Shown here in pieces: positions 1-17,441 of a stretch of DNA of 32,000 nt (position 1 is the stretch's first letter; each line of letters opens with the position of its first letter). Both the position numbers and the translations under genes were made by a program. The DNA comes from an uncultured Gammaproteobacteria bacterium. GTDB taxonomy: Bacteria > Pseudomonadota > Gammaproteobacteria > Steroidobacterales > Steroidobacteraceae. Below the pieces are notes generated by a model. The model saw only the letters and a program-made list of their open reading frames with translations, was not told the origin of the DNA and did no database searches. Where the stretch lies: contig CAVWUK010000003.1 of NCBI GenBank assembly GCA_963758145.1, positions 1-32,000 on the forward strand, in the 5' to 3' direction.

Positions 1-241
1 GAGAACGCCGTGTAAACTGCGAATCTCCCGGCAAGCCTCCCCTTCCTAAAGGAATTTCGATTCAAGGTCAGGATTTGTGCTTAAGCGCGCCGGAGGCGCG
101 CCAGCGAAAGCGATATGCAGGGCGGCATGCCGTCCCGCGTTAGCGGGATGAGCGATCAGCGAACCCGGAGCAGCGCGCTCGCGGTCGGTCCGCGATTCGC
201 CCAGATCCTATGCGAGCATTAAACAGCAACAACCGCTGCCG

Positions 242-388
242 TCAAAGGCCTCTGCGGCGGCCTCCCCCGTCTCTCGTAATTAGAAAGGTGACCCCAAGGA
301 CTGCAAACATACCCTTAAGAAGACCCGCCATGATGCGGCGAAACGCCGGCACAAATACCAGAAGCAATACAACCGTCAGAGTAACCAT
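242..388 (-). CDS. Hypothetical small hydrophobic protein (48 aa)
   Basis: ATG at 388 is preceded by AAGGAGG 6 nt upstream. The product MVTLTVVLLLVFVPAFRRIMAGLLKGMFAVLGVTFLITRDGGGRRRGL has two hydrophobic stretches and a basic tail. No family recognised. Confidence 0.3.
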   Translation of the reverse strand: MVTLTVVLLLVFVPAFRRIMAGLLKGMFAVLGVTFLITRDGGGRRRGL

Positions 389-757
389 GGAGAGCCTCCT
401 TGCGCGAAGACTTGCAAACCAGATAATTGTCAATTACCGCATATGAGTGGGCCGCATCGACGTCGGCGGAGTTAGCGTTGGTCCCGGCGCTTCGGATATG
501 ACCCGGCTGCTCCTAACGCAGCACAGCGTGGCGGGTCGCTCGACTATTCCCAACCGATGAAAAATGGTACTTCTCGATGCACCCCCTTTTAGACACCCCG
601 CGACACTTGAGCCTCAGAATCACGGTCCTCACGGTGAGGACAATAAGCCCAAGTGCATCCGAAATGGTCGCACTGGAGGTATAGTACATGTGCAACCAAA
701 ATGGAGGCAAGCAGAAAATGAGGTTATCTGTGGTGCATCCATATTGGGGGCGCCACA

Positions 758-988
758 TTGAAACAATTGCGAAGTCCAAGACACCGTGCCCTCATCAGCG
801 TCATCGTGGCCGCCCGAAAAGCGGCGGGACTCACGCAGCGGCAACTGGCAGCAAAGCTCAAACGATCGAACTCGTTTGTCTGGAAGCTCGAAGCCGGTGA
901 ACGCCAAGTGAATGTGCTCGAATTCATCGAAATCTCGCGCACGCTGGGAGTAAAGGCATCCAAGTTGATAGCAGAAATCGAGGGATAG
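758..988 (+). CDS. XRE/Cro-C1 family helix-turn-helix transcriptional regulator
   Basis: 76-aa ORF with the HTH signature AAGLTQRQLAAKLKRSNSFVWKLEAGERQVNVLEFIEISRTLGV. TTG start; the exact start is uncertain. Confidence 0.8.
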   Translation: MKQLRSPRHRALISVIVAARKAAGLTQRQLAAKLKRSNSFVWKLEAGERQVNVLEFIEISRTLGVKASKLIAEIEG

Positions 989-996
989 CCAGCTTC

Positions 997-1527
997 GTGA
1001 CATTAACATCCGTGGTTTGTGGAAGAGTACACCACAGACCCGTTCTTAACTGGACACGCGGATTCAGTGACATTATGAAGATGACAGGCCAATATTGCCC
1101 ACGCAGCAGCGTCGGTCGGCAGCCGGATGGTCCGCCAGGGGAAACCGAGGTACTGAGACTGAATCCGGGACGGCGAACCCGAATACTCGATGCCACCGGA
1201 TGGAAAATCTTAGAGCCCGGCTCGTTGAACCTCGCTGTCCACACTCGTAACTTCGAGAACCTGCTGGCGCTGCGGCCGACCATCACTGAGCCAGGGACGA
1301 GTATTCGTTACCCGAGTCCGTTCGAACAAATACCGATCGCTCGCGTTGAATACTATTACTACCGTGCAACGGCTTCGAGTGACGACCAGTCACGACCGGT
1401 CCTCGTTCGGAGGCCGAAGGTTCCCAGCCCGCACGCGCGAGTCGTGGAGCTGTTCGCAGACGTGAAATTGGTTACTGCGTTAAAAATAGATCCAGGCGAT
1501 TTCGTGAGAGTCGAACTTTTGCCGTGA
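997..1527 (+). CDS. DUF120 / archaeal-type (CTP-dependent) riboflavin-kinase-like beta-barrel protein
   Basis: PGSLNL and VLVRRPKVPSPHARVVELFADVKLVTALKIDPGDFVRVEL match the RibK/DUF120 pattern as I recall it from M. jannaschii RibK (PYEGTLNL ... [37 protein letters not shown]). GTG 997 lies 9 nt after the XRE stop. Alternative starts are ATG 1075 and 1081. Confidence 0.45.
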   Translation: MTLTSVVCGRVHHRPVLNWTRGFSDIMKMTGQYCPRSSVGRQPDGPPGETEVLRLNPGRRTRILDATGWKILEPGSLNLAVHTRNFENLLALRPTITEPGTSIRYPSPFEQIPIARVEYYYYRATASSDDQSRPVLVRRPKVPSPHARVVELFADVKLVTALKIDPGDFVRVELLP

Positions 1528-1830
1528 CCGGAGACATGAAAATCGCCGCCGTCATGCTGCAATCCCCAGTCGAGAATAACAACAAGCGCTCGTCCGCGGC
1601 GAGTAACGTGCAATCGACCGCATAGAGCGCATCGCATCACTTTTTGCATTGAACGTAGGTTAAATTCCCGGCCTTTCGGCGTCACGCAAAGGGTAAGTTT
1701 TGCGACGTTGTTTCGAATGTTCGCGATCAATGGTTTGGGCATCGCAAAAGTCCGCCGCGCGCGTCCTTGTTGGGTGCACAGATCGCGGCCGCACAACAGG
1801 ATCACCCGGGCGTTTGGTTTGCGCAGCGGC

Positions 1831-2091
1831 CTACTCAGAAAGTCCGAGGAAACTCCGTTTCTCGGAGGAAAGCGAATTGATATCTAATCCCAAGCCATCA
1901 TGGCCATACAGTCGTCGTAATACGGTCTGGTGCAACCCTTCCAAGGCATTTTCAAGTTCTGCATAGTTAGTACAGCAATCATATGTGTTGAGATAGCCGC
2001 TAATCCGCGACTCTATTGCGCGACCAAGGTCCGCCAATCGAATGTTGCGAGAGAGCAGATTAGTGATGGACCCGAGCTGTAGCAGTTCCAT
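1831..2091 (-). CDS. RT-coupled 86-aa ORF, thumb/X-domain-like (possibly the frameshifted C-terminus of the RT)
   Basis: ATG 2091 lies 2 nt after the RT stop (TAAGAATG), in the -1 frame relative to the RT. This frame stays open upstream into the RT 3' end. LGRAIESRISGYLNTYDCCTNY resembles the GWxNYY-type thumb motif of group II/UG-type RTs. Confidence 0.5.
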   Translation of the reverse strand: MELLQLGSITNLLSRNIRLADLGRAIESRISGYLNTYDCCTNYAELENALEGLHQTVLRRLYGHDGLGLDINSLSSEKRSFLGLSE

Positions 2092-2093
2092 TC

Positions 2094-3041
2094 TTATGGC
2101 GTCCCTCTGCGCTTTAAGAAGTACGAGCTCGTATCGATACCGTTCTTTCGTAGGCCGAGGCCTAAGAACTCGACCACCTCGTCAGGTGGAACGATCACTG
2201 ACTTCGAACCGGGTCCGGTATTTGGAATTGTTAGATTGAGACGGTCCAGCGACTCTTTGCAAAACCCCTCAAAAGCTTCGCACTGTTCCTTCGAATCTGC
2301 GAAGAACAATAAGTCGTCCGCATATCGGACCGCGTGAAAGCCGGCCTTCAGAATCCCGTCGTCAAGAGGTTCCAAAAATAGATTGGCAAAAAATGGTGAT
2401 AGCGGCATTCCTTGGCGTATGCCGAGACCCTCCTTGATTCCCAGGTCTGCGAGACGTTTTTTCTGCGTGCCAACTGGATTTTCGATTTCACAGTTCGCGG
2501 CCTCAATCAGGAGGCGATGCAGTGAGCGATGGCGTATTTCGTGAGCAATGCGGTCATGAAGCAGTCGCCGGTCAACCGTATCAAAGAATGCAGAGATGTC
2601 GGTCTTAAAAGCCCATCCATGCTTTTCACGAAGCCGGCAGGCACGCTCAGCAGCATCGTACACCGTGCGGCCTTTTATAAAGCCGTAGCTAATCTGGTTT
2701 GCGAGTCGCGCCCCATACTTCGCCGTGAGGAAATTCAGAGTCGCTCGTTGAACGATGCGATCGTTTACGGTTGGAACACAGATAGATCGAAATTTTCCGC
2801 TTCTATTCAGGGACCAAATGCGGGCGAAGGCGGCTAAACGTGTAGTCGCTATTAAGAACCTCGCTATGAAATGAATCGAAGGAGAGGTTTCGGGTCTCTG
2901 GCAAACTATTTTGAATATAACTTTCATCGATGCGACTGTGTTTCTTGATTTGGTTCTAAAGAAACGCTTATAGATCTCTTTCCAGGAACCGCCCTCGATC
3001 GCGGAATAACCGGCAACGAAGTTAAGGCCGGTCTTGGCCAT
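2094..3041 (-). CDS. Reverse transcriptase, fingers-palm only (UG/Abi-like, unclassified)
   Basis: RT motifs are present: KFRSICVPTVNDRIVQRA (RT1), YGFIKGRTVYDA (RT2), WAFKTDISAFFDTV (RT3/A), GIRQGMPLSPFFANLFL (RT4/B), VRYADDLLFF (RT5/C, YADD) and VEFLGLGL (RT7). GGGAG lies 5 nt before the ATG. The retron VTG motif and the DGR SQ-type motif 4 are absent, and the ORF ends ~20 aa after RT7. Confidence 0.9.
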   Translation of the reverse strand: MAKTGLNFVAGYSAIEGGSWKEIYKRFFRTKSRNTVASMKVIFKIVCQRPETSPSIHFIARFLIATTRLAAFARIWSLNRSGKFRSICVPTVNDRIVQRATLNFLTAKYGARLANQISYGFIKGRTVYDAAERACRLREKHGWAFKTDISAFFDTVDRRLLHDRIAHEIRHRSLHRLLIEAANCEIENPVGTQKKRLADLGIKEGLGIRQGMPLSPFFANLFLEPLDDGILKAGFHAVRYADDLLFFADSKEQCEAFEGFCKESLDRLNLTIPNTGPGSKSVIVPPDEVVEFLGLGLRKNGIDTSSYFLKRRGTP

Positions 3042-3089
3042 CGTCGCTCCCTGCTCGCAAGTGTCTATCCCCCGGACCTGCGCGATGAT

Positions 3090-3224
3090 GGAGCGCGGAC
3101 GCCTCAGTGCAGCGAGCCTCTTGCGAGGTTAACTTGCACCGGGGGCCGCCCGTGACGCCTAGACGATGGTTCGCCTGGGAATCACTTTGCCGCTTGGTGA
3201 CGTGCAGCGCACTCGCAGCGATGC
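3090..3224. repeat. Direct repeat module R1 (135 nt), RT-proximal copy
   Basis: Aligns to 3475-3610 with one 3-nt substitution block (3186-3188 ttt vs cac) and a 1-nt indel. Flanking sequences are unrelated. Confidence 0.95.
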
Positions 3225-3474
3225 GCGCGCCGACACTCAACGGCCACCGAAGTGCGAATGGGACGCATTAGCATATTGCACTCCCTCAGGCCACCTATAA
3301 ACGCGCTTAGAGCCCAAAAAGTCACGACCCAGCGTCGAAATACTCGGCGGCGATGAAGCTGCGCCCCACCACTTTCCGGCGATGTCCGCGCTTCCGCATC
3401 CCTGCCTTTGGGCTGCCCCACACGCCTGTCACCCGCCTTCCCGACAAACCCGGGGGAAGAAGACGGACCCTTAC

Positions 3475-3610
3475 GGAGCGCGGACGCCTCAGTGCAGCGA
3501 GCCTCTTGCGAGGTTAACTTGCACCGGGGGCCGCCCGTGACGCCTAGACGATGGTTCGCCTGGGAATCACCACGCCGCTTGGTGACGTGCAGCGCAACTC
3601 GCAGCGATGC
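3475..3610. repeat. Direct repeat module R2 (136 nt), RT-distal copy
   Basis: Near-identical to 3090-3224. It carries an intact 6-bp hairpin TCACCA-n7-TGGTGA (3567-3585) that is shortened to 4 bp in R1 (3182-3200). Confidence 0.95.
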
Positions 3611-3866
3611 AAGTTGGAAGCTACGTACGCTGCCGTTATTTGGGCCAGTCAACGTTTTTTCAAGTCTTTGGTGGCGCAGACAGCCAACGGCCAGTACCTC
3701 GTGGTAGTCAAAGCGCCATCAATGCTTGAAGATACCGCAGCAGAGGGTTGTCGACCGAGCGCCAATAAATGGCAAGACTTAATCGCAGGAAGAGCCCAAA
3801 GGCGTTTTCGGAAGACCTGATTCCGCCTGCAATTCGCGTGCTATTGGCTGCGGACTTGGTCACGGC

Positions 3867-5122
3867 ATGATGTCGTGTCGCCTTGAGCGCGAGCTTAAGA
3901 AGCTGTCGCCAGAGCTGGTCTCCCAGGCGGAATGGACAGTCGACAACTTTCGTTACCCAAGTTCTCCAGGATCGAGCGAATCGTGCGCTGACCGCGGTTG
4001 TATCAGGCGGCCTAAATCCATTTGCAATCCGCGGCGCGTGCCAGAGCCCCGCTTGCCGCGCGCAATCCGCGGAAAGAGTTGCGCGCACGATCGGTCTTTA
4101 TGCCGATGTTGTTATGGTGCCGGACATTGTGACGCGAATTCTCGCCATCGGTTGGAGGGGTAGCGAAGTACGATTACGCTTGGTTGGTCAACCAGTGGAT
4201 CGTGGTTCGGCTGCTTGCGCCGATGATCAGAAGCCGGTGTCATTCGGTTTTGGTCCGGGGCATTGCCGATTTGTCTGAAGTGCGCAGATGAATTGGTCGA
4301 AGTCATTGAGGACGCGCGCCGCCGAGATGCTTGGCCGTAGAAAAATTCAGGTCGAACATCACGAACGGTCGTCTGGTCATGGACATGACGAAGCTCTTCG
4401 GTAGCTCGTTAGTATTCTCGAAGGCACTTACCCGGACTGAAAAGAAGAAGCTCAACAATGGCACCACGCCAGCGAAATTGGTTCGATCCCGTCTACATGG
4501 AGCAGGCCGCGCTCTCGGTCAAGTCAGCATTGTTGGATCTCCGGTTTGCCGGCGACGCCGGAGCCGCTCTATTTACTACGGATCGCCAACAATTGATTGC
4601 GCTAAATGCCTTTGATTCCAAGGCACCTGCACTGAATCGTATCGCTGCATGGGAGGAGCCCCGATCGATTCAGCTCCCGTGGTTAGACAATCTCTCTGTG
4701 GCACAGGTGCTCGCGCTGCAGGGAAGAAGCGGCCAGCGCCCTCCCCGCCTTTCGCGCTTCATTCGTGCAGGAAGTCGTTCGTTCGAACGGAACGGCTCGG
4801 CCAATCGCCGACGCAATCGACAAGCTGCGGGCGGAGGCGGCTGACGTTCGAGCGTGAGCTCTCGGCGGCAGCAAGTGGACCGGAACGTGTGTTCAGGGCT
4901 ACATACGGGTTGCTTGGGATGGGCGTAGCGGTCTACGGCATCGCATCCGGGCAAGCTGCGGCGGCCGCTGCGGGATTGCTCTCGGTCCTTGGTTTGCTTC
5001 ACGAAAGCGGCAAGAAAAACCACCAGGCATTAGCAAAGGCAAAATCTCACCCGGCGTACGTTCTTGTTAAAGCGAAAGAACTTGCTGAGCACGCGCGTCA
5101 TCGCAAAGGTAGCGTGCCTTAA
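3867..5122 (+). pseudogene. Multiply frameshifted remnant of a ~400-aa protein with a hydrophobic C-terminal segment
   Basis: Protein-like sequence can only be followed by hopping frames (frames named by coordinate mod 3). Frame 0 from 3867: MMSCRLERELKKLSPELVSQAEWTVDN. Frame 1 to ~4225: RVARTIGLYADVVMVPDIVTRILAIGW. Frame 0 to ~4345: CLKCADELVEVIEDARAAEMLG. Frame 2 to ~4460: VEKFRSNITNGRLVMDMTKLFGSSLVF. Frame 0 to ~4722: WFDPVYMEQAALSVKSALLDLRF..LPWLDNLSVAQVLAL. Frame 1 to ~4850: EEAASALPAFRASFVQEVV..AIDKLRAEAADV. Frame 2 to 5122: ELSAAASGPERVFRATYGLLGMGVAVYGIASGQAAAAAAGLLSVLGLL. Family not recognised. Confidence 0.45.
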
Positions 5123-5181
5123 ATTCTCGTTCCCCTATTTTTACTCTTGATAACCTATTTTATCGGGAGTAAAAAGGGCGC

Positions 5182-6149
5182 ATGAGCAACACGCCGGTCC
5201 CCGTCCCGAAGTCCCCCCAAGGCCGCCTCCTGACGGCCGCCGCCTTCCAGGGACTCGCCGACGTGCCGCCCGAAATGGAGTGGTTCGCGAACCTCGGCAA
5301 CCCAGCCACCCGCCGCGCGTACCAGACGGCCCTGCAGGACTTCATGCGCTTCACCGGCATCAACGCGCCCAGAGGAGTTCCGGATCGTCACGCGGGCCCA
5401 TGTCATCGCCTGGCGCGACGAGCTCGGCCGCCGTGCGCTGTCGGCCACGACCATCCGCCACCGCCTGTCGGCGCTCGCATCCCTATTCGAGTACTTATGC
5501 GAGAAGAATGCCGTGACCCATAACCCCGTCAAGGGCGTGAAGCGGCCGGTGCCGGAGACCACCGAAGGCAAGACCCCAGCGCTCGGCGATCACCAGGCCC
5601 GGAAGCTGCTCGACGCGCCGGCCGGCGACACACTCAAAGCCAAGCGCGACCGGGCAATCTTGGCGACGCTGCTGTATCACGCGCTTCGCCGGGACGAGCT
5701 CTGCAAGCTGAAGGTCAAAGACTACGCCCAAGAGCGGCGCGGCGCGCCCCATTTAAAAGTGTCGGGCAAAGGCGGCAAGACCCGCTATGTGCCGCTGCAC
5801 CCGGCCGCGAGCGGCCTGATTACCGATTACCTCGAGGCGGCCGGCCACGGCGGCGCCGAGACGAGCCCCCTCTTCCGCCCTCTCCACAACAGCCGCGACC
5901 ATGCGTCCGGCCAGGCCATCACGCCGGACGGGGTTTATCGGATGGTGCGGGAATACTCGGCGCAGCTTGGTGTTCGAGATCGGCGCGCATTCGCTGCGCG
6001 CGACGGCTGCTACCAATGCGCTCGACCACCAGGCCGATATCGCCAAGGTCCAGGAGTGGCTGGGCCATGCGAATATTTCGACAACGCGAATTTACGATCA
6101 TCGCAAAACCCGGCCAGAGGATAGCCCGACGTTTAAGGTGGCGTATTAA
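5182..6149 (+). pseudogene. Tyrosine recombinase/phage-type integrase, two frameshifts
   Basis: Three frame pieces join into one integrase: ..AYQTALQDFMRFTGINAP / EEFRIVTRAHVIAWRDEL..KVSGKGGKTRYVPLHP..VREYSAQLG / EIGAHSLRATAATNALDHQADIAKVQEWLGHANISTTRIYDHRK. The R..HxxR..Y catalytic region is recognisable. Shifts lie near 5365-5375 and 5965-5975. Confidence 0.8.
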
Positions 6150-6167
6150 CTGGCATCAGCGGCTCAT

Positions 6168-6842
6168 ATGAAGCACCGCCGGTTCAAATATTTTACCAAG
6201 CTTCAATACGCTGAGGCATTTCTGGATGGAAATGTGCTTTGCCGAACTGCCTCATTTTTCCGAGATTATGAGGATGCGCATGCTCGACAGATAATTGGGG
6301 ACGAATATGAAGGTACGCGCCTATATCGTCCGTTAAACGGTTTAGAGATAAATAGTCTTACGCGTGGCCAGTCGTTAACGCTCAACGCGGGGATGGAATG
6401 CCTAACAAAGGCGCATGAAATCTATATTTTTTGCATGAGCCGTGCGTGTACCGACATTCTAAAGAAGGAATTCAACGCTGTTGCGTGTGCGGAGATTATA
6501 GACCCGCGTGAGTTCATCGGTCGTTGGCGTAATGCGCTTCCTGAAGAAGCCAAACAAAAGGGAAAGCACGTTGCTCGCAAGGTAGGTTACTACAAACCGG
6601 AGGATTTGCCAGGCAACGTGTGGGCCTTGCCTGATTTGATTACTACGACAAAGCTGAAGCACTTTCAATATCAAGAGGAGTATCGACTGGCCTATACGAC
6701 AACGGACGCATTTGCTTTTGAAAACTGCGTGTATCAAATCGTTGACCGCAAAGTGCGGCCATCACCGAAGCCGAATGAGCATCTCTGTCAAACACTAGAG
6801 TTAGGCGATCTCCGTGACATTTGCCGAATCCACACAGTTTAG
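6168..6842 (+). CDS. Hypothetical protein, DUF2971-like layout
   Basis: Intact 224-aa ORF in an AT-rich segment. FKYFTKLQYAEAFLDGNVLCRTASFFRDYED, IFCMS and KHFQYQEEYRL are reminiscent of DUF2971 motifs. This assignment is from memory only. Confidence 0.55.
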   Translation: MKHRRFKYFTKLQYAEAFLDGNVLCRTASFFRDYEDAHARQIIGDEYEGTRLYRPLNGLEINSLTRGQSLTLNAGMECLTKAHEIYIFCMSRACTDILKKEFNAVACAEIIDPREFIGRWRNALPEEAKQKGKHVARKVGYYKPEDLPGNVWALPDLITTTKLKHFQYQEEYRLAYTTTDAFAFENCVYQIVDRKVRPSPKPNEHLCQTLELGDLRDICRIHTV

Positions 6843-6912
6843 ATTTCTGTGGCCGCGGATGTAGCACCCTACTAGGGATGCACCTGAATCGCTTTACAGC
6901 GGCGATCGCCCC

Positions 6913-8104
6913 CTACCCCTTGGCCTTTTGGACCCCCCCAAACACCCCCGCCAGCAGGGACTGAAAGGTGTCTTTCGCTTGTGCCGTTGCCCGCCCCTGT
7001 TGATCTTCCAAACTCCGGCCGTCAGCAGCGCGAGCCCGGAATACCTCTTGGTTCGACATAGGCGGTAGGTAAACGAGAACGCTCTTCACATCGCCTTGAT
7101 TTATGCTTGATTGGTTTATCGCGTGTTTCGCGTTCTTTATCAGGGCCGAGCGAGCGAACGCGGTCTGCAGGTATGCAATAACAAATTCGGGAAGAACCCT
7201 CTCCCTGCTCACAGATACCCTCATCATATTAGACTCGTATACGGCAGACTCCTCGAGCCGCGGAATTATCGCGCTTTTACCTAAGTACTCCGGGCTATTA
7301 ACACGATTAACAACAATGTCTCCCTCCGTGAGGCGAAAACGCTTAGCCTCTGCCGTGTCTAGCCGTAGCCGTTTCCATTCGGCCATCGGCCGCACTCGCC
7401 CATCATAAAATCCATCAATTCGCAGTATTGGAGTACCGGAACCATACGTACCGGCATGCTTGTATAGGCCATTTTGCGGACCACCCGCGACAACCTCCCC
7501 AAGCGTGGTTGTCCGCCATCCCTTCGGATTCGTCGCCGGTTCTCCAAACATATCCAGAAACAGCGTCGGAACAATCTCTCTGGCCTTTTGCTCCGCCTCC
7601 CGCCGCATCCGCACGATGTTTTCGGCGCGCGACACCAGATCAACAATTCGACGCTGTTCGTCTAGGGATGGAAGCGGCACATCCCACGTTTCGACTTCAG
7701 ACTTCCGAATGGATGGAGGGTTTGAGTCACTTGCAAAATCTGAGAGATTCTTCGTCCTAAATAGGTAGTAGAGATACCGCGGTTCCACACGAGTCGAGTC
7801 GCCTGTAAGCCCATGAATTGTTGTCAATGCAACATGGGCGCGTTAGAAGACGCTTCTTATTAGTCGCAATGGCAGCACCAATCTTGGGAAAAATCACTGT
7901 GCCCGGTTGGAAAACCTTTGCTCGGAGCCGCGAGCGGACTGCGTCGGACACGGAATGATTCCAACGGGTGATCTCTATCTCATTCCCTGGAAGATTCATG
8001 TCACTGACTTTGAGAAATGGGAACGCGGCGTCGGGGACTCCCTGATCGAGGATAGGAAATCCGCTTCCTGAATCAATAGCCGCAAAGTCCGAAAGGCGCA
8101 TCAC
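6913..8104 (-). pseudogene. hsdS: Type I R-M specificity subunit HsdS, one frameshift
   Basis: N-terminal TRD piece is 8104-~7835 (..VIFPKIGAAIATNKKRLLTRP). The remainder is in another frame (AHVALTTIHGL..LPSLDEQRRIVDLVSRAENIVRMRREAEQKAREIVPTLFLDMFG..second TRD..). The start overlaps the hsdM stop (GTGATG). Confidence 0.8.
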
Positions 8105-9725
8105 GCGTTATCCGCCAACGCCTCTCTCAACGCCGCAACTTCGCTCGCAATTTCCCGCTCCAACTCCGCGAGCTCGTCGAGCAGCTCCCGCGGATCGCGA
8201 TGCACGGCTGTTGAGGCATTCACCGGGCGATATCGCCCGGCCGACAGATTGAATTCATTGGCGCGCAGTTCCGCTGCATCGGCAAACCACCACTTGGCAT
8301 GCCACGGCGCCTTGGAATCGCGTTCGGCCCATTCCACTGCCTTGGCTTCGCGATCCCGGTACGCGGCCACCAATTCCGGCAAGTCGTCGGCCTCTATCGG
8401 CGTGTCGTGGTTCGCATCGAGCTTGTAGCCGTCATTGTCGACATGCAGAAACAGCACTCGGTCGGTCGTTCCTCCCTTCTTGAAGAGCAGGACCGACGTC
8501 TTGACGCCGGAATACGGCTGAAACACCCCGCCGGGTAGTGACATCACCGCTTCGACCCGATTGTTCTCGATCAATTGCCGCCGGATTTCCTTGTGCGCGC
8601 CCGTCGAACCAAAAAGCAGTCCTTCCGGCACGATCACGCCGCAGCGGCCGCCGGCGCGCAGGCTTTCCATCATGTACTTGAGAAACAAGACTTCCGTCGA
8701 CTTGGCATTGCCAACTTTCACATCGTCGACGACGCGGTCGGAATCGATCTTGCCGGCGAATGGCGGATTGGCTAGCACGACGTGATAGCCCTCATCGGGA
8801 AGCTGCAGCTCCGCCTTCTTTTCGGAGTCCAGGCTGCGTGGTCAACACATTGCGCAGCAGGATCCGCACATTCGGCAGTCCCCGTAGAGTCAAATTCATG
8901 GTAGCGAGCCGCACCATTTGCGGATCGACGTCATTGCCGAAAAAAGTCTTGGATCTGCAGCGTCGAGGCCTGTGCGGACGAAAGCTTATCGCCGATGCCG
9001 CGGCGCTGGATCTTGCCGTCGATCTCGACTTCCTGGATCCCCGCCGGCGACGAGTTGGCGAGTCGCATGTGATTGTAGGCGGCCACCAAAAACCCCGCCG
9101 TGCCGGCAGCAGGGTCATAGACCGTTTCGCCGATCTTTGGATCGATCATTTCGACGATCGCCCGGATGATGTGTCGCGGCGTGCGGAACTGCCCCAATTC
9201 GCCAGCCTGCTTGATTTGCTTGAGCACGTGCTCGAACAAATCACCCTTCGTGTCGGCATCCTCCCGATCGAGCTTCAGGCCGTCCACGAGGGTCACGACT
9301 TGGGTGAGTACCGTCGGCTCGGTGATATTGAGCCGCGCACCACGCATGAAGTTGGTGGCCGACCGAGTCGCAATTTCCTCGAAGAACGCAAACACCTCGT
9401 CTTGCACGAAGCGCACCAGCGCCTCGCCGGACAGGCCGCGCGCCCACACCGACCAGCGGAACCGATCACGCGGAATGCTGGTCTGGCCTTTCTCCGGTGC
9501 ATTCAGCGGATTTTTGAGCTCCCAGTCGCCGGCGAAGACGCTCTCATAGGCTTGTTCAAGCACCTTGGCGCGTTGCGCATTCTCGGCATCGATCCCTTCG
9601 ATCAAATAGAAGAAGAACAGGAATGAGAGCTGCTCGGCATTGGCCATTGGATTCGGATAACCACCCCCAAATAGGTAGTCCCGGATCTGGTCAATCTGGC
9701 GGCGCATATCAGCGGTCAACGGCAT
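8101..9725 (-). pseudogene. hsdM: Type I R-M N6-adenine DNA methyltransferase HsdM, two frameshifts
   Basis: The gene is in three pieces. First: ..GQFRTPRHIIRAIVEMIDPKIGETVYDPAAGTAGFLVAAY... Second: FFGNDVDPQMVRLATMNLTLRGL. Third: VLANPPFAGKI..EVLFLKYMMESLRAGGRCGVIVPEGLLF. Shifts lie at the A6 run 8940-8945 and near 8810-8830. Confidence 0.85.
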
Positions 9726-9766
9726 CAGTCTTCACTCTTTTATTTGTCCCCACGCGGGGCCACTTG

Positions 9767-11918
9767 CTAGGGTAACTTACGATCTCCCTGATACTCGCCT
9801 TTCGGGCGATCGCGAGCCTCCGAAAACGTTGGATCGGCAAAAACAAACGCATTCAGTGATTTCAGCGTCGCCTCCAGCCCCTTCTCGCCCCCAAAGCGCC
9901 GCACCGCCTGACCAATACCACCCAGCAGCGAGAATGGAGCAAAGGCGAAATTGCCGGTGGACACTTCCGTCCAGGTATCGGCATTGGCGCGAATTTGGCT
10001 CCCAACGAGCCCCAACCAACGCATCTGGTCGGACGTTAGCCCCTCTTGCGTGAGGAGCCATGCCTCAAAACGCGCACCGAGCGCCGCACTTTTGGCTTCC
10101 GAAGCCTGAGGAAACACGAGTCGGCCGTCTTCATCTACCGTAATCCAGGCCCGCGTCATCGGATCAATATGATCCTCCACATCAACGACCAGCAGCCGGC
10201 GGGGCTGGTAGCTCTTCTTCGGCCGAGGCTCCGCGACAAAGCCGCCCTCCCCCACGGCATCGTCATCGCCGTGATAATCGGAAACCCCCACAAAATCGAA
10301 CATCGTAAAGAGTGGCTTGCCCTTGGATTTGCGCGTGCCGCGGCCGCGCATTTGCTGATAAAGAATCGCCGATTTCGTAAACCGCGCGAACACCAGATTC
10401 ACCACTTCCGGACAATCAAACCCGGTGTCTAGCATGTTGACAGACACCAGAATCTCCGGGAACTTCTCCTTCTTGAAGCGCTTGATCAGAGTCTCGCTGA
10501 CCGGGCTGTCGTCATTCCCAAGGCCCGACACCACGTAATCGGCATAGCGGATCTCGGGGGAAGGCTTCTGGTCCGCATATGCGGCATCGAATAGCTGCGC
10601 GAGGATCTCCGCGTGGCGCTTCGTGACCGCAGAAAACGATGGTTTTGCCGAGCAGCGGTTTACGTTGAATCCCTTTGGCATCGACGTAGCCGTCTTTGAG
10701 CACACTTTGAAACTCTCGAACCATGGCGCGATTTCGCTCCGGAATCGTAAAGCGTCGCTCGAGAGCCGATGGATCGACCGTAATCGGATCCCCCGTCTCG
10801 AACAGCTTCTCGAACTCGGTGCGGCTGTCGGTATCCAGCGCTGCCCAGTCAATATCGGAGCGACTGACCGGAAATCCGCCCTCTGCCGCGGTCTTGACCG
10901 TCTTTGCCTTGTAGATTTGATACGGAACCAGATACCCCTCACGGATGGCATCTCGCATCTTGTAGGAGTACGTCGGCGTCTCGACTTCGAAGAACCGCAT
11001 CGTGTCCCGCACAAAGAGCTTGTCCTCCTCGTCTGGCGCATCATCGTCCACATCGGCGACGCACGGCGTCGCCGTGAGCCCAATCTGCACTCCGTCAAAA
11101 TGCTCTAGCACGCCCCGCCACTTGCCATAAATGCTTCGGTGACACTCATCCGAAATCACCAGGTCGAAATACCCGGCCGAGTAGTCGCGGTAGATATTGA
11201 TCATGCTCTGCAGCGTCGTGATCGTGATGCGCTTTTCATCCTGAAAGCGCCGCCCGCTTTGCAACCGATACGACGGATAATCCGGCAAGTGCTCGGCGAA
11301 GGCATCTTCGGTCTGTTTTGCGAGCGTATTGCGATCTACGAGGAACAGTACTCGCGTAACGGCATTGGCTTCGAAAAGGCGTTTAATGAACGCCGCCGCG
11401 GTCCGCGTCTTGCCCGTCCCGGTCGCCATTTCGACCAGCATCTTGCGCCGGCCGCGGTGAAACTCGCCGGTGAGGACCTCAATACAATCCGTCTGATATT
11501 CCCGCTCGACAATGCGATGATCGATCGGCACAAATCGCGGATCCCGCCGAACCACCCGCGTCGCAAACCGTCTCTCGAGATCCTCCGGCTCGAAAAACGT
11601 CTTGACCGGGCGCGGATGCGCCTCGTTCTCCCAGTCCCAGAACCGAACCTCATCGCCGTTGCTTAAGAATATGAACGGAACCTTTAATTGCACGGCATAG
11701 GCCTTCGCCTGAGCCGCCGCATCCGCCGGGTTGACGGCCGCTCGCTTCGCTTCTACGACCGCGAGGGATCGCCCGTTCCGATCACACAGCACATAGTCGG
11801 CCTTCGTACCATCCTGAAGCACATACTCAAAACGCACGGCATTGGAGTTCTGAATTTCCCAGCCTTGATCCTTGAGCTGCGCGTCTATCTTGACCCGAGA
11901 GAATGCCTCATTCGTCAT
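9767..11918 (-). pseudogene. hsdR: Type I restriction enzyme R subunit HsdR (EcoEI-like C-terminus), one frameshift
   Basis: It has an HsdR_N-like N-terminus, helicase motifs MATGTGKTRTAA and VISDECHRS, then ..GKTIVF. The frame then changes to SAVTKRHAEILAQLF..VSVNMLDTGFDCPEVVNLVF..QQMRGRGTR... The C-terminal LTSDQMRWLGLVGSQIRAN tail is EcoEI_R_C-like. The shift lies near 10625-10640. Confidence 0.85.
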
Positions 11919-12013
11919 TTAGCAACCCATTGTTTCACCACCGCATTCAGATTTCGCGCAGCGCGCACTGATCTCGGTGGTTTCGTCACTTTTCGTGGAC
12001 TCGCTGTGCCCCG

Positions 12014-12865
12014 CTAGGACATCGCGCTGATCCAAAAATCCAACTTCGCATGATTTGCCAGCTCCATCATTAACACCACTCGCCAATGACTGGCGCCATA
12101 AATCGCTCTTCTATCTACCGCCTGGGCCTTCAAAAATCCTTTTGGATTGGTGCCACCCGAATCCAAATGCACCCGACAGTCCGCGAGAATCTCACCAATC
12201 TCGTCGTTACTCAATTCCTTATAGCGCTCAATCAGGTGAAGTCGCTCGAAATGGCACTCGATTAATCGCCACTGAGTTGCGCCAACGCCGTTGGGCCGAG
12301 CAAGACTGAATACGGCTCCTACGCCCGTTAAGTTCGCGTCTTCAATCAGAGTTACGCGAAGAAACGTCTTGTCCGGGATGTCGTCCGAAAACGAATGTAA
12401 GTACTGCCGTTCGCCGTTCGTCGTCAACCAATCGTCGTGTTTAATCGAGTTGCATCTTGAACAGCAAGGAACAAGGTTTAACGGGTGTACCGAGAACTCG
12501 GGAAAGCGTGCCATTGGCATGTAATGGTCAAATGTCGAGTACAGCGTCGTTCCGCACATTGGACAATATTTCATCGATCTGCGGGGTTGCGTGCGCTTTA
12601 TCGCTTCCTTTAGATCTCGCAGTGGCGATGTCGCGCCCTCGTAGCAAGCTCTCAATTCACTAGCGACAGCGTGCCTTCGCGCATCCGCTTTTACATCGCA
12701 GAGCTCGTCGGCATTCAATGCGCTGGTCAATTCGTCGAATCGCTCCTCTACGAAAACGTGTGCCGTAGTCAACTTCTCTCGCACCTTCAAATGCTTGCGA
12801 TCGCGTATCGCGATATAGCGCTCCAAATAACTTGGCGGACATTTAATCCTGACTAACGCCTTCAT
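12014..12865 (-). CDS. HNH endonuclease (Septu PtuB-like partner of the upstream ATPase)
   Basis: HNH core is CPMCGTTLYSTFDHYMPMARFPEFSVHPLNLVPCCSRCNSIKHDDW. The start overlaps the ATPase stop (ATGA at 12862-12865). Confidence 0.85.
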   Translation of the reverse strand: MKALVRIKCPPSYLERYIAIRDRKHLKVREKLTTAHVFVEERFDELTSALNADELCDVKADARRHAVASELRACYEGATSPLRDLKEAIKRTQPRRSMKYCPMCGTTLYSTFDHYMPMARFPEFSVHPLNLVPCCSRCNSIKHDDWLTTNGERQYLHSFSDDIPDKTFLRVTLIEDANLTGVGAVFSLARPNGVGATQWRLIECHFERLHLIERYKELSNDEIGEILADCRVHLDSGGTNPKGFLKAQAVDRRAIYGASHWRVVLMMELANHAKLDFWISAMS

Positions 12866-14355
12866 GATCTATTGCTGTACTGCGCTAGAAGGTAAGCCTG
12901 CGCGCTTAAACTCAAGCGGCCCTCAAATCGAGCTATAACCTCCTCTGCAGACTCCTCGTACGCTAGTTGCTTGAGCGTTCTACGATAAAGGCTATCCACG
13001 TCGATCGTTTCAAACACGTGGCGTGTTAACTCTGTGACACTCTCCCCAAAGCTTTCCAGACCGAGCGGCTCTGCCTCTGTTACGTTTCCTGTTCGCTGAA
13101 ATACTACGACACGCTTTGAAGGAATCTGCTGAATCACAACAGGCGAGTGCGTAGCCACTATGGAATATGAATCATGCGCGGCCAGCACGTCCGTCAGAAC
13201 TAGAAACAGATTGGCAACCGCATTTGGATGAAGATGAGTTTCGGGCTCGTCAAACAAGACAAGACTGTTGGGCTGAATCCAGGCTAAGAGAGACGTTACG
13301 AAATGACAGAGGATCGATTGTCCAGAGCTCAACAATGACAAGGCCTGATCGTCTTCCGTAGGATCGGCAATCTCTTTCTCAAGACTAGCGGACATCGATT
13401 CGCTTGAATCTCCCAATATTCGCTGCATGTAGTCGGTCCATTCAGTCTGTATCACTCTATCCCGGATACGCTGCTGGTTTTTCCTATAAGCTTCAATTAG
13501 AGAGGTTTGAGAAAGATTCCCCTTTTCATTCCGTATTCCGCAATAGACATAGCTGCTTGTAGTATCGCGGCGCGGGCGCTTGAAACGATCGAAAGCACTG
13601 TAGGAGATCGCGACAATACGAGTGAACAGTGGACGGCCCGCTGGAAACCGGTTTTCACGTTCGACGGCGGAATTGGCCGATACCTGCGCGATTTGAGAAA
13701 GATCTTCCCCGAGTTTAGCCAAGAACCGTGTCTTACCAACGGCGTTTCGACCGATTATTCCAAACACTCTCCCGGGAAGAGAATCCTTGCCGTTAAAGTC
13801 CACGCCCAGAATCGTGGGGGCTTCAGCGCCATCGATGGTGCATGAGTAGGAAAATGCGAAATTCTCTAGAATACTTTGACCCTGGACCCAAGCTTGGCCG
13901 AATCGCCTAGATCTTCGTGCGCCATTTTCCCTCATCATCGCATTACGAAACGGGGTTGTAGGTTCGAAGTCCGCCGACAGAGCTGGTTGCCACGCAATAT
14001 CACGCAGCGCAATAAGAATGTCCTTTCCGTTGTCTCCGAATAGTTTATTCAAGTTCTTGTAGTAGTCGTCCTCTTGGGCAAGCGATATGAAGTCTTCACT
14101 TAGAGAGCTGAAAGATTTGGGAAGTTCGGTGGCGGGCGCCACCCTGATTGGTTCCTGTGGTGAACTTATTCGATGAAGGATTTTTACCGCGCCAATGCGG
14201 GTCTCCGCACCGTCTTTATCTATATAGGCGAGATGAAACTGGATCACATGTCCAAAGTCGTCCCAGTTGTCAGTTGTCAGGGCAAAGATCGGGCGAGGAC
14301 TATTTGGTATTCTTTCTCGGTGGCGCCTGACCACAAACGCTAGATTTGAAGCCAT
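12862..14355 (-). CDS. ABC/AAA_15-21-type ATPase with an unassigned ~160-aa N-terminal domain (Septu PtuA-like)
   Basis: Walker A GRNAVGKT (aa 202-209), signature LSSGQ, Walker B LVLFDEPETHLHP and H-loop VATHSP are present. AAGGA lies ~10 nt upstream of the ATG. Confidence 0.85.
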   Translation of the reverse strand: MASNLAFVVRRHRERIPNSPRPIFALTTDNWDDFGHVIQFHLAYIDKDGAETRIGAVKILHRISSPQEPIRVAPATELPKSFSSLSEDFISLAQEDDYYKNLNKLFGDNGKDILIALRDIAWQPALSADFEPTTPFRNAMMRENGARRSRRFGQAWVQGQSILENFAFSYSCTIDGAEAPTILGVDFNGKDSLPGRVFGIIGRNAVGKTRFLAKLGEDLSQIAQVSANSAVERENRFPAGRPLFTRIVAISYSAFDRFKRPRRDTTSSYVYCGIRNEKGNLSQTSLIEAYRKNQQRIRDRVIQTEWTDYMQRILGDSSESMSASLEKEIADPTEDDQALSLLSSGQSILCHFVTSLLAWIQPNSLVLFDEPETHLHPNAVANLFLVLTDVLAAHDSYSIVATHSPVVIQQIPSKRVVVFQRTGNVTEAEPLGLESFGESVTELTRHVFETIDVDSLYRRTLKQLAYEESAEEVIARFEGRLSLSAQAYLLAQYSNRS

Positions 14356-14416
14356 TACCGTGTTTCCTTACGCGTCGTATCCATTGTAGTCTGATCCCGC
14401 ACTCAGCAATCCTCTA

Positions 14417-15217: not shown

Positions 15218-15234
15218 GTGCTTACAATTTCATC

Positions 15235-17089: not shown

Positions 17090-17166
17090 TGGTGCGCCCG
17101 GAGAGATTCGAACTCCCGGCCTCCTGGTTCGTAGCCAGGCGCTCTATCCAACTGAGCTACGGGCGC
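17090..17166 (-). tRNA. tRNA-Arg (anticodon ACG)
   Basis: The reverse complement reads GCGCCCGTAGCTCAGTTGGATAGAGCGCCTGGCTACGAACCAGGAGGCCGGGAGTTCGAATCTCTCCGGGCGCACCA. It has a cloverleaf acceptor GCGCCCG/CGGGCGC, anticodon loop CUACGAA and an encoded CCA. Confidence 0.95.
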
Positions 17167-17350: not shown

Positions 17351-17441
17351 TGGCGGAGAGGGAGGGATTCGAACCCTCGATGGGCTTTTGACCCATACGC
17401 CCTTAGCAGGGGCGCGCCTTCGACCACTCGGCCACCTCTCC
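17351..17441 (-). tRNA. tRNA-Ser (anticodon GCU), long variable arm
   Basis: The reverse complement reads GGAGAGGTGGCCGAGTGGTCGAAGGCGCGCCCCTGCTAAGGGCGTATGGGTCAAAAGCCCATCGAGGGTTCGAATCCCTCCCTCTCCGCCA. Confidence 0.95.

What the first reader, a model, noticed from the sequence alone, without database searches (positions are those of the whole stretch)
3042..3660. Orphan RT preceded by a 0.6-kb leader with two near-identical 135-nt structured modules (repeat-unique-repeat layout)
Seen: the RT gene (2094-3041, minus) is preceded on the same strand by module R1 (3090-3224), 48 nt from the ATG. After a unique 250-nt spacer comes module R2 (3475-3610). The modules differ only by one 3-nt block and a 1-nt indel, while their flanks are unrelated, so a discrete unit was copied. 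In the RT-sense strand each module can form GGUGCA..UGCACU enclosing CCUC-GCAA-GAGG (GNRA tetraloop; plus 3106-3140 and 3491-3525). Each can also form CACGGG-cggc-CCC(G)GUG and a third hairpin (3567-3585). The spacer holds CUUCCC-n11-GGGAAG. Established: retrons and class 2 UG/DRT reverse transcriptases (DRT2, DRT3, DRT9) use an upstream co-oriented ncRNA as scaffold or template. Inference: two identical repeats flanking a unique segment is the geometry that permits cDNA strand transfer or rolling reverse transcription (retroviral R-region transfer, DRT2 template jumping). I do not know of a described RT defence system with a duplicated template-like module.
Basis: partly seen in the sequence, partly recalled or inferred. 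Interest (0 to 1): 0.85.

Follow-up and report, generated by a model that had tools for sequence, protein, structure and literature searches.

The report
Reverse transcriptase with duplicated coding leader
Two near-identical 135-nt modules upstream of this reverse transcriptase gene are a conserved feature of a whole enzyme family. Their spacing always keeps an open reading frame, which suggests the enzyme copies the leader RNA into a repeated gene for a small membrane protein, much like the DRT2 "Neo" phage-defence system.

Summary
R1 (3090-3224) and R2 (3475-3610) differ only by a 3-nt block and one indel, and the indel is specific to this window.

The layout is not a local accident. About 90% of loci encoding homologues of this ~400-aa group II intron-like RT carry a 95-100% identical direct repeat of 75-220 nt upstream of the gene, even where RT identity falls to 30%. 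These loci come from Alpha-, Beta- and Gammaproteobacteria, plasmids and one viral contig.

- **Concerted evolution:** the two copies change together (335 concerted versus 41 single-copy changes).
- **Reading frame:** the repeat period is a multiple of 3 in 76 of 80 loci, across about 30 different lengths. The circularised unit always has a stop-free frame on the RT-sense strand. That frame carries its own RBS and start codon and usually a transmembrane-like helix.
- **RNA structure:** a hairpin follows each module, and the two loops pair with each other. Covariation supports this in two clades whose sequences are unrelated.
- **Partners:** no other gene is conserved next to the RT.

Best reading, inferred and not shown: the RT copies this terminally redundant RNA and jumps between the repeats, producing periodic DNA that encodes a repeated membrane protein. 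This would be a DRT2/Neo-like system in a different RT lineage, and I found no description of it. The window's own copy carries frameshifts in the RT and the leader ORF.

The parts
3637..3663 (-). Promoter-like element upstream of the distal module: TTGAAA (3658-3663), 16 nt, then a weak -10 AAATAA (3637-3642). The predicted RNA 5' end lies about 10-20 nt before R2.
   Evidence: Positional homologue of TTGAAA-16-TATCAT in L001 (10/12 match). Many loci have a -10-like hexamer ending 4-16 nt before the repeat. The consensus scan of the window itself found none, so this is suggestive only.
3475..3610 (-). Distal module R2 (5' copy).
   Evidence: Both copies are conserved in L001 and L003-L006 and across the RT family.
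3571..3573 (-). Distal discriminating block (GTG), directly 3' of the invariant GCUGC...GCGGC stem-loop.
   Evidence: Across 31 Beta/Gamma-clade loci this block is hypervariable (entropy 1.7-1.9 bits per position), even among close relatives.
3431..3468 (-). D-hairpin directly after R2 (GUCCGUCUUC ... GAAGGCGGGU). Its loop carries kissing element x, UCCCCCGG (3450-3457).
   Evidence: Covariation in alignment A4: helix 1 is 96.9% paired and two of its pairs show changes on both sides.
3225..3474 (-). Unique spacer. In the open RT-sense frame it encodes a Pro/Ser/Gly- and Arg-rich stretch and then a hydrophobic segment (about 3287-3349). It also holds an RBS (GAGGGAG, 3281-3287) and ATG codons at 3272-3274 and 3266-3268.
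   Evidence: The corresponding L003 frame is open from 9322 to 10018.
3090..3224 (-). Proximal module R1 (3' copy), ending 48 nt before the RT start codon.
3186..3188 (-). Proximal discriminating block (AAA).
   Evidence: The first position is A in 31 of 31 Beta/Gamma-clade loci and the consensus is AAA.
3056..3082 (-). P-hairpin directly after R1 (CGCAGG ... CUUGCG). Its loop carries x', CCGGGGGA (3068-3075), which is complementary to x.
   Evidence: In A4, helix 3 is 99% paired and all 6 pairs change on both sides. The kissing helix 2 has 7 of 9 pairs changing on both sides. The same architecture appears in an alphaproteobacterial clade of unrelated sequence (A5). Across all loci, cognate flanks are more complementary than non-cognate flanks.
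3022..3274 (-). Small leader ORF (84 aa in L003: MLMRPIRTSVAVEVSAR + R1-encoded peptide + tail). It overlaps the RT start by 20 nt. In the window it is broken by two 1-nt deletions near 3238 and 3212.
   Evidence: P0122.
1831..3041 (-). [quoted passage not shown] It is about 401 aa in relatives. The window copy has a 1-nt deletion at about 2138 and a scrambled stretch at 2784-2992.

Best explanation
The leader and the RT together form a self-contained two-part retro-element.

Shown by comparison:
- A transcript in the RT sense starts just upstream of R2 and carries R2, the D-hairpin, the spacer, R1, the P-hairpin and the RT ORF.
- The two modules are kept identical within each locus, except for one short block.
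- The hairpins that follow the two modules pair through their loops, which holds the 3' ends of the two modules together.
- One repeat period is always a multiple of 3 and has no stop codon in one RT-sense frame. That frame contains an RBS and start codon, a basic stretch and usually one hydrophobic helix.

Inferred:
1. The group II intron-like RT, a lineage known for template switching, copies this terminally redundant RNA.
2. Once the cDNA has copied R2, its 3' end is also complementary to R1. It re-pairs there and copies the spacer and R2 again.
3. The result is head-to-tail DNA of unit length, or a unit-length circle after recombination.
4. In that product the start codon reads through module, spacer and module without end, making a repeated small membrane protein that stops growth of an infected cell.

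This is the logic of DRT2/Neo, achieved with long homology repeats rather than 3-nt motifs, and in a different RT lineage. The conserved A-rich block in R1 and the hypervariable block in R2 probably tell the RT which copy is donor and which is acceptor. Alternatively they mark the jump junction.
For: **Family-wide repeat.** 68 of 76 evaluable genome loci have a 95-100% identical direct repeat upstream of the RT, with RT identity down to 30%. Sixteen further metagenome and viral loci have it too.

**Concerted evolution.** Over 23 locus pairs, 335 sites changed in both copies together and 41 in one copy only.

**Period.** It is a multiple of 3 in 60 of 64 loci and in 16 of 16 extra loci, across about 30 distinct lengths from 273 to 453 nt. 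The four exceptions are off by 1 nt relative to their relatives.

**Open frame.** All 60 loci with a 3n period have a stop-free circular frame on the RT-sense strand. About 7.6 would be expected to have one in any of six frames by shuffling, and close to 0% in the AT-rich loci.

**Signs of translation in that frame.**
- A hydrophobic 19-mer with Kyte-Doolittle hydropathy (KD) of at least 1.6 occurs in 46 of 60 loci, against 9 and 3 in the other two frames.
- Substitutions in the spacer are enriched at the third codon position (275/305/382, p = 7e-5).
- dN/dS is lower than in the other frames for most pairs.

**Start position is circularly permuted between clades.** It lies after R2 and before the helix in Alphaproteobacteria. 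It lies after the helix and before R1 in the window's clade, where the helix can be translated only from a permuted or concatenated unit.

**Burkholderia loci.** R1 carries a conserved frameshift, while the R2-containing unit stays open.

**RNA structure.** Covarying hairpins with a kissing interaction follow both modules in two clades. Across all loci, cognate flank complementarity averages 6.6 nt against 5.2 nt for non-cognate flanks. The G-U pairs fit the RT-sense strand.

**No other partner.** No other gene is conserved next to the RT, so the effector is probably encoded by the leader.

**Setting.** The locus sits in a defence island with type I R-M, PDC-M01 and ShosT-like genes next to tRNA genes.

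**Precedent.** In DRT2 the template lengths are divisible by 3 and one frame spans the junctions (PMC12039810).
Against: - No cDNA, concatemer or repeated protein has been observed. No contig with three or more modules was found, and no multi-unit protein is present in the protein database.
- The ORF lies on the RNA-sense strand, unlike Neo. Expression from the product would therefore need second-strand synthesis and a promoter inside the unit. No sigma-70-like site was found in the window's unit.
- In alphaproteobacterial clades the linear genome already encodes a complete small membrane protein: RBS-ATG after R2, the helix, R1, then a stop. A concatemer is not needed there to make a membrane protein.
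- Purifying selection on the peptide is weak (dN/dS 0.4-1.0). AlphaFold gives no confident fold (pLDDT 36).
- Eight evaluable loci and L093 have an RT without the duplication.
- How cDNA synthesis is primed is unknown.
- The window's own copy has frameshifts in the RT and the leader ORF, and its relatives L003-L005 have an IS21 element inside the RT.
Confidence: 0.5

Rival explanations
1. Ordinary two-gene operon. A small membrane or leader protein is translated from the linear mRNA and works with the RT. R2 is only a cis-acting RNA copy, for example a second RT-binding or priming site or a translational control element that sequesters the start region through the kissing hairpins. No periodic DNA is made or translated.
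For: Alphaproteobacterial clades have a strong RBS (GGAGG) and ATG right after R2, and a complete ORF ending just after R1. In the window's clade the small ORF stop abuts or overlaps the RT start, which suggests translational coupling. The kissing element x overlaps the first codons of that ORF in the alpha clades. No concatemers were seen in public assemblies.
Against: It gives no reason for the repeat period to be a multiple of 3 in 76 of 80 loci, nor for the R2-to-spacer junction to stay in frame. It does not explain why the hydrophobic segment in the window's clade lies upstream of the only RBS-ATG yet stays open and hydrophobic. It does not explain why R1 can carry a frameshift while the R2 unit stays open.
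Confidence: 0.2
2. RT-independent DNA-level array. The direct repeats mediate RecA-type unequal crossing-over or excision, which expands or contracts the unit or releases a circle. The 3n rule keeps expanded alleles in frame, and gene conversion keeps the copies identical. The RT has another, unrelated role.
For: Concerted evolution of the copies is what gene conversion produces. The 3n period and open frame would also be selected under this model. Two solo modules without an RT exist (L134 and L194).
Against: No locus with three or more modules was found among about 100 loci. The repeat is tied to this RT family across phyla, with no other conserved gene. The covarying RNA hairpins and kissing loops placed exactly after each copy point to an RNA-level function.
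Confidence: 0.1
3. Miniature DGR-like retrohoming. The RT copies the proximal module (a template repeat with a conserved AAA) into the distal module (a variable repeat). This homogenises the two copies while randomising one short block.
For: The proximal block is invariant (A in 31 of 31 loci; AAA consensus). The distal block is close to random even among close relatives. The rest of the module is homogenised. The invariant copy lies next to the RT, as template repeats usually do (established DGR layout).
Against: The differences are confined to one 2-5 nt block and are not adenine-specific. C and T positions in the proximal block also vary in the distal copy, while many other adenines in the module never differ. 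The RT has the group II-type QGxxxSP motif rather than the DGR-type motif (own knowledge). There is no Avd-like gene and no target gene with a variable C-terminus.
Confidence: 0.07
4. Generic repeat (REP/MITE-like), a recent local duplication, or an assembly artefact, with no function.
For: The window comes from an error-prone assembly: 33 gap openings over 10.8 kb against L003.
Against: The same layout is present in independent assemblies and in about 90% of homologous loci across three proteobacterial classes. The module occurs only twice in the window. Genuine module hits in metagenomes lie next to the RT.
Confidence: 0.01

Closest known systems
DRT2 (UG2 reverse transcriptase + ncRNA, product Neo)
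   Same: A compact RT-plus-upstream-RNA module with no separate effector gene. The template unit length is always divisible by 3 and one frame has no stop across unit junctions. Every unit carries an RBS and a start codon. RNA structure brings the two ends of the template together (PMC12039810, PMC11100668).
   Different: The RT belongs to another lineage, group II intron-like: the Drt2 model scores 41 bits against a cutoff of 390. The jump would be guided by 75-220 nt identical repeats encoded in the genome rather than ACA triplets. The unit is 273-453 nt rather than about 120 nt. The ORF is on the RNA-sense strand, not the cDNA-sense strand. No promoter reconstituted at a junction is evident. 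The encoded unit has a transmembrane-like helix.
Retroviral R-region strand transfer and the terminally redundant pregenomic RNAs of hepadnaviruses and caulimoviruses
   Same: The RNA carries the same sequence at two positions, so a nascent cDNA made on the 5' copy can re-pair with the 3' copy. The genome encodes more than one unit length (own knowledge of these viruses).
   Different: The RT gene lies outside the repeat-bounded unit. The element is not a virus or a transposon. There are no multiple genomic copies and no integrase function is tied to it.
Diversity-generating retroelements (TR/VR pairs)
   Same: [quoted passage not shown]
   Different: Variation is limited to one short block and is not adenine-specific. 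There is no Avd and no variable-protein target. The RT has the QGxxxSP motif.
Group II intron RTs and free-standing G2L RTs (G2L4; CRISPR-associated RT-Cas1)
   Same: These are the closest sequence relatives. GsI-IIC RT scores E = 7e-20, Cas6-RT-Cas1 4e-18 and G2L4 1e-12 in the PDB search. The TIGR04416 model scores 126 bits. This lineage is known for efficient template switching.
   Different: There is no intron RNA: no Rfam hit, even at E <= 5. The active site is YADD, not the YIDD of G2L4. There is no Cas1. The score is far below the group II maturase cutoff of 300.
DRT10 (UG17) and DRT9
   Same: Best specific PADLOC hit after a generic RT model (UG17, 129-142 bits). These systems also use an upstream ncRNA to make tandem-repeat DNA (PMC12632851; bioRxiv 10.64898/2026.04.29.721553).
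   Different: The match covers only the RT core. No SLATT partner is present. The DRT10 repeat unit is 7 nt and non-coding, and its ncRNA is about 137 nt without a long duplication.

Membership tests
DRT2 (UG2/Neo) | RT belongs to UG2 (NCBIfam Drt2 equivalog, cutoff 390 bits) | tested here: not met
   41.3 bits on a 70-residue stretch only. PADLOC Drt2 E = 8e-12, partial.
DRT2 (UG2/Neo) | Structured RNA encoded upstream of the RT and co-oriented with it | tested here: met
   Covarying hairpins and a kissing interaction on the RT-sense strand.
DRT2 (UG2/Neo) | Template unit divisible by 3, with a stop-free frame spanning unit junctions | tested here: met
   60 of 64 loci plus 16 of 16 extra loci. 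All 3n units are open on the RT-sense strand. The strand is opposite to Neo.
DRT2 (UG2/Neo) | Template jump programmed by short ACA motifs, and a promoter reconstituted across the junction | tested here: not met
   The ends are defined by 75-220 nt identical repeats. No sigma-70-like site was found in the window's unit.
DRT2 (UG2/Neo) | Concatemeric cDNA produced on phage infection | not testable with these tools
   No assemblies with three or more modules. Needs an experiment.
Diversity-generating retroelement | TR/VR pair differing at template adenines throughout the repeat | tested here: not met
   Differences are confined to one 2-5 nt block and are not A-specific.
Diversity-generating retroelement | Variable repeat at the 3' end of a target gene, plus an accessory Avd | tested here: not met
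   No conserved neighbouring gene apart from the RT.
Group II intron | Ribozyme RNA domains (domain V/VI) flanking the RT ORF | tested here: not met
   No Rfam match at the gathering threshold or at E <= 5.
Group II intron | RT/maturase reaching the TIGR04416 cutoff (300 bits) | tested here: not met
   125.8 bits.
DRT10 (UG17) | UG17 RT tightly linked to a SLATT-domain protein | tested here: not met
   The UG17 model matches only the RT core (positions 18-277 of 429). There is no conserved partner gene.
Retron | Retron-type RT with msr/msd flanked by inverted repeats | tested here: not met
   The best retron model scores 60.7 bits against a cutoff of 235. The repeats are direct, not inverted.
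G2L4 DNA-repair RT | YIDD active site and close similarity to P. aeruginosa G2L4 | tested here: not met
   RYADD is invariant in the family. G2L4 chains score only E = 1e-12 over the RT core.

The most novel reading that the evidence does not exclude
[quoted passage not shown] A terminally redundant leader RNA is held in shape by kissing hairpins. The RT copies it with homology-guided strand transfer of the retroviral type, producing unit-length periodic or circular DNA. The stop-free frame of that DNA encodes an open-ended, repeated membrane protein that serves as the antiphage effector. The hypervariable 3-nt block in the distal copy would be the scar or selector of the jump.
Probability: 0.45. 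Interest if true: 0.92.

Novelty: new variant of a known kind. Interest (0 to 1): 0.88.

Why it matters
DRT2/Neo is so far the only known case in which a cell writes a gene from a non-coding RNA by reverse transcription.

A second, unrelated RT lineage doing the same through a different, retrovirus-like mechanism would show that this strategy is recurrent. It would also assign a function to a sizeable group of unexplained G2L-type RTs (at least 250 clusters at 50% identity). The system is compact, about 2 kb, and its design rules can be read from sequence: repeat identity, a 3n period, kissing loops and the discriminating block. That makes it directly testable and potentially usable for programmable synthesis of tandem DNA in vivo.

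It also links bacterial defence RTs mechanistically to strand transfer in retroviruses and pararetroviruses.

Tried and rejected
**Explanations considered and rejected**
- **DGR reading** (TR/VR pair of about 135 nt, AAA versus GTG). Rejected because the differences are limited to one block and are not adenine-specific.
- **Conventional gene spanning both repeats.** Rejected because no conserved start lies upstream of or within R2, and a stop codon often abuts the 5' edge of R2.
- **Leaderless translation from the RNA 5' end.** The conserved ATG near the start of R2 is out of frame.
- **'Jump across the kissing helix' as the definition of the unit.** The x-to-x' distances (384, 397, 398 nt) are not the 3n periods, so the repeat homology defines the unit.
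- **Antisense template RNA.** Rejected because the G-U pairs fit only the RT-sense strand.

**Searches that gave nothing useful**
- RNAalifold on the module alone gave little covariation, because the core is invariant.
- duplexfold on the flanks was too noisy.
- Rfam gave nothing, even with relaxed thresholds.
- Pfam, PADLOC and NCBIfam gave nothing for the unit peptides, the divergent 447-aa gene or the 224-aa gene.
- AlphaFold on the 196-aa linear ORF P0121 gave pLDDT 36, which is uninformative.
- A search of the protein database for multi-unit proteins found only three single-locus ORFs.
- Of the 120 metagenome pattern hits, 95 were chance matches to the 18-nt pattern.
- Literature searches for a described equivalent found none in the held library.
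- An exact look-up of the window's 315-aa ORF found no contig on record.
Full report
**1. What is in the window**

Read on the minus strand, the region contains the following parts, in order:
- a weak promoter-like element (TTGAAA at 3658-3663, AAATAA at 3637-3642);
- the distal module R2 (3475-3610);
- a unique spacer (3225-3474);
- the proximal module R1 (3090-3224);
- 48 nt of further leader;
- the RT start codon at 3041.

The two modules are identical apart from AAA (3186-3188) versus GTG (3571-3573) and a 1-nt indel. A 35-nt core of the module occurs only at these two places in 32 kb.

The RT ORF as listed (2094-3041, 315 aa) is cut short. Homologues are 397-401 aa. The closest intact one, P0002 (70% identity), aligns to 3041-2112 in one frame and to 2148-1840 in another.

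Four independent assemblies of a 97-99% identical relative (L003-L006) show the following:
- The window lacks one base at about 2138.
- The window has two 1-nt deletions near 3238 and 3212.
- The window has a scrambled stretch at 2784-2992.
- Overall there are 33 gap openings in 10.8 kb.

In those relatives the repeat period is 387 nt. Their RT is interrupted by an IS21 element. I cannot tell whether the window's indels are assembly errors or real decay.

**2. What the RT is**

- Pfam RVT_1 matches.
- The best NCBIfam model is the group II intron RT/maturase, at 126 bits against a cutoff of 300. The retron, Drt2, Drt3 and Drt4 models score far lower.
- In PADLOC the best hits are a generic RT model, then UG17, RT-Cas1 and UG26. 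All cover only the RT core.
- In the PDB the nearest chains are GsI-IIC RT, Cas6-RT-Cas1 and other group II RTs. G2L4 is more distant.
- The family alignment has invariant RQGMPLSP and RYADD motifs and a conserved C-terminal region of about 100 aa.

It is therefore a free-standing group II intron-like RT. It is not a member of any characterised DRT, retron, DGR or G2L4 family. The family is sizeable: 253 clusters at 50% identity at E <= 1e-30.

**3. The duplicated module is a property of the family**

A scan of one genome per species returned 80 loci.
- **Prevalence.** In the 1.2 kb upstream of the RT, 68 of 76 evaluable loci contain a direct repeat of 75-220 nt at 95-100% identity. The start-to-start spacing is 273-517 nt, and the proximal copy usually ends 40-140 nt before the RT.
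- **Taxonomic range.** The loci come from Beta-, Gamma- and Alphaproteobacteria. Acinetobacter and Acetobacter plasmids and one IMG/VR contig carry the same system.
- **Divergence.** Between clades the module sequences are unrelated. Within the window's clade they are 65-75% identical.
- **Concerted evolution.** In 23 pairs of related loci, 335 variable sites changed in both copies together and 41 in one copy only.
- **Not a dispersed repeat.** Among 120 metagenome stretches matching an 18-nt core pattern, 95 were chance hits. The 25 with a genuine module had the RT next to it wherever the contig reached, apart from two related solo copies.

**4. The period is a codon multiple and the unit is an open frame**

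- **Period.** The start-to-start distance is a multiple of 3 in 60 of 64 loci analysed, and in all 16 additional metagenome and viral loci. It takes about 30 different values. The four exceptions differ by 1 nt from close relatives.
- **Open frame.** In every locus with a 3n period, the circularised unit has a frame without stops on the RT-sense strand. Shuffling predicts about 7.6 of 60 with any open frame, and essentially none in the AT-rich loci.
- **Linear extent.** In the linear genome the frame opens at or shortly before R2, often directly after a stop codon. It closes 0-70 nt after R1.
- **Hydrophobic segment.** A transmembrane-like segment is present in that frame in 46 of 60 loci, against 9 and 3 in the other two frames. 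It always lies in the spacer.
- **Coding signal.** Spacer substitutions are enriched at third codon positions (p = 7e-5). dN/dS is modestly below that of the other frames. The peptide is therefore only weakly constrained, as reported for Neo.
- **No known fold.** There is no Pfam family and no confident AlphaFold model.

**5. Where translation would start**

In alphaproteobacterial clades a strong RBS (GGAGG) with ATG or GTG lies 10-40 nt after R2. The linear genome there encodes a complete small protein of about 95-110 aa: basic stretch, hydrophobic helix, R1-encoded tail, and a stop just after R1.

In the window's clade the only RBS-ATG lies after the hydrophobic segment, about 50 nt before R1 (window ATG 3272-3274, RBS 3281-3287). 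The linear product is then an 80-aa peptide (P0122, P0123) whose stop abuts or overlaps the RT start. The hydrophobic segment can be translated there only if the unit is permuted or repeated.

In four Burkholderia and Paraburkholderia species, R1 carries a conserved 1-nt deletion. The linear ORF therefore stops inside R1, while the R2-containing unit remains open.

Three findings are hard to explain unless reading continues from a module into the sequence that follows R2:
- the start position shifts around the unit between clades;
- the 3n rule holds;
- the Burkholderia unit stays open despite the R1 frameshift.

**6. RNA architecture**

A hairpin follows each module directly. In the window, the D-hairpin is at 3431-3468 and the P-hairpin at 3056-3082. 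Their loops are complementary (UCCCCCGG at 3450-3457 and CCGGGGGA at 3068-3075).

| Alignment | Clade | Sequences | Cells paired | With partners slid | Pairs changed on both sides | Shuffles reaching this |
|---|---|---|---|---|---|---|
| A4 | window's clade (Beta/Gamma) | 16 | 92.5% | 41-57% | 15 | 0 of 500 |
| A5 | alphaproteobacterial, unrelated sequence | 9 | 94.8% | 13-48% | 7 | 0 of 500 |

- In A4 all three helices covary. Examples in the kissing helix are CCGG/CCGG, CUAG/CUAG, CUGG/CCAG and CCGA/UCGG.
- In A5 the kissing helix is 100% paired.
- Over all 64 loci the longest complementary run between the two 3' flanks averages 6.6 nt for cognate pairs and 5.2 nt for non-cognate pairs.
- G-U pairs place the structure on the RT-sense RNA.
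- The architecture puts the 3' ends of the two modules side by side.
- No Rfam family matches.

**7. The discriminating block**

In 31 loci of the window's clade the block lies directly 3' of an invariant stem-loop (GCUGC-N10-GCGGC).
- **Proximal copy.** The first position is A in 31 of 31 loci, and the consensus is AAA.
- **Distal copy.** The same positions are close to random (1.7-1.9 bits). They differ even between loci that share the same proximal block.

The variation is not adenine-specific, which argues against a DGR mechanism.

Either the distal block is never part of the functional product and drifts under a 'not AAA' constraint, or it is rewritten at a template-switch junction. I could not decide between these.

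**8. Context**

No gene other than the RT is conserved next to the leader. PGAP leaves the leader unannotated on an Acinetobacter plasmid.

In the window the system lies in an island that contains:
- a tyrosine integrase;
- a type I R-M system;
- a PDC-M01 (PtuA-like) pair;
- a ShosT-like gene.

The island sits beside tRNA-Arg and tRNA-Ser. Core genes follow: alaS, recA, mutS, aspS and clpB.

**9. Interpretation**

Shown:
- a conserved, structured, concertedly evolving, terminally redundant leader specific to this RT family;
- a unit constrained to 3n with an RT-sense open frame that carries translation signals and a hydrophobic helix.

Inferred:
- the RT copies the leader RNA and transfers between the repeats;
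- periodic or circular DNA results, and its frame is translated into a repeated membrane protein that acts as effector, in analogy to DRT2/Neo (PMC12039810, PMC11100668).

Weak points:
- no product has been observed;
- the ORF is on the RNA-sense strand, with no evident promoter inside the unit;
- alpha clades already encode a complete linear small protein;
- about 10% of loci lack the duplication.

I put about 0.5 on the periodic-product model and about 0.95 on the narrower claim that the duplicated leader is a functional RNA partner of the RT.

**10. Novelty**

Searches of the held literature found DRT2, DRT9, DRT10 (UG17 with SLATT), DRT11 (UG5), UG27 arrays and G2L4 repair RTs. None describes a group II intron-like RT with a long duplicated, frame-preserving leader.

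Noticed in passing
window 5182-16047: Defence island beside tRNA-Arg (17090-17166) and tRNA-Ser (17351-17441). It holds a tyrosine integrase split into three frames (5182-6149), type I R-M S/M/R genes (6913-11918, also fragmented), PDC-M01B (12014-12865) with a PDC-M01A/PtuA-like ATPase (12862-14355), and a ShosT-like gene (15235-16047). Core genes alaS, recA, mutS, aspS and clpB follow.
   Followed up: partly
window 1-13055 versus L003/L004: The window is 98.5-98.7% identical to relatives from other assemblies, but with 33-36 gap openings per 10.8 kb. Many are single-base insertions that break genes: the 447-aa divergent gene at about 3867-5150, the integrase, the R-M genes and the RT. Substitutions cluster at 2784-2992 and 3788-5280, while the leader 3042-3787 is almost unchanged. 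It is undecided whether this is long-read assembly error or real decay.
   Followed up: partly
L003-L005 10753-13331 (window ~2293-2307): An IS21-family element (istA/istB) is inserted in the RT gene of the closest relatives. The window lacks it.
   Followed up: yes
L009, L012, L013, L016 (proximal module, just after the discriminating block): Four Burkholderia and Paraburkholderia species share a 1-nt deletion in the proximal copy only. The linear small ORF therefore stops inside R1, while the unit containing R2 stays open.
   Followed up: partly
L134 2075-2215 and L194 3009-3149: Two related metagenome contigs carry a single module with no RT homologue within several kb. They may be remnants.
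   Followed up: partly
L093 (Ga0208887_100030) 638-2032; L030, L038, L040, L043, L046, L048, L075, L078: These RT homologues have only one module or no detectable upstream repeat. About 10% of loci lack the duplication.
   Followed up: partly
L067 (contig labelled Candidatus Heimdallarchaeota B3_Heim): Its leader and unit peptide are almost identical to those of Acinetobacter higginsii and A. lwoffii (L070, L073). The contig is probably Acinetobacter contamination of the archaeal bin.
   Followed up: no
window 3867-5150 (+), L003 7928-9271: A divergently transcribed 447-aa gene and the 224-aa gene at 6168-6842 have no Pfam or PADLOC match. They are conserved only in the closest relatives.
   Followed up: partly
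window 2112-2139 (-) and 3005-3055 (-): Weak sub-threshold Rfam matches: CRISPR-DR44 at 25 bits (E = 0.36) and the DnaX frameshift element at 15 bits (E = 3.4). The first lies at the site of the RT frameshift. Both are most likely chance.
   Followed up: no
Beta/Gamma-clade loci, e.g. L008, L011, L018, L019, L022, L031 (5994-6009): The stop codon of the small leader ORF falls within a few nt of the RT start codon, or overlaps it (20 nt overlap in L003). This suggests translational coupling of RT synthesis to the leader ORF.
   Followed up: no
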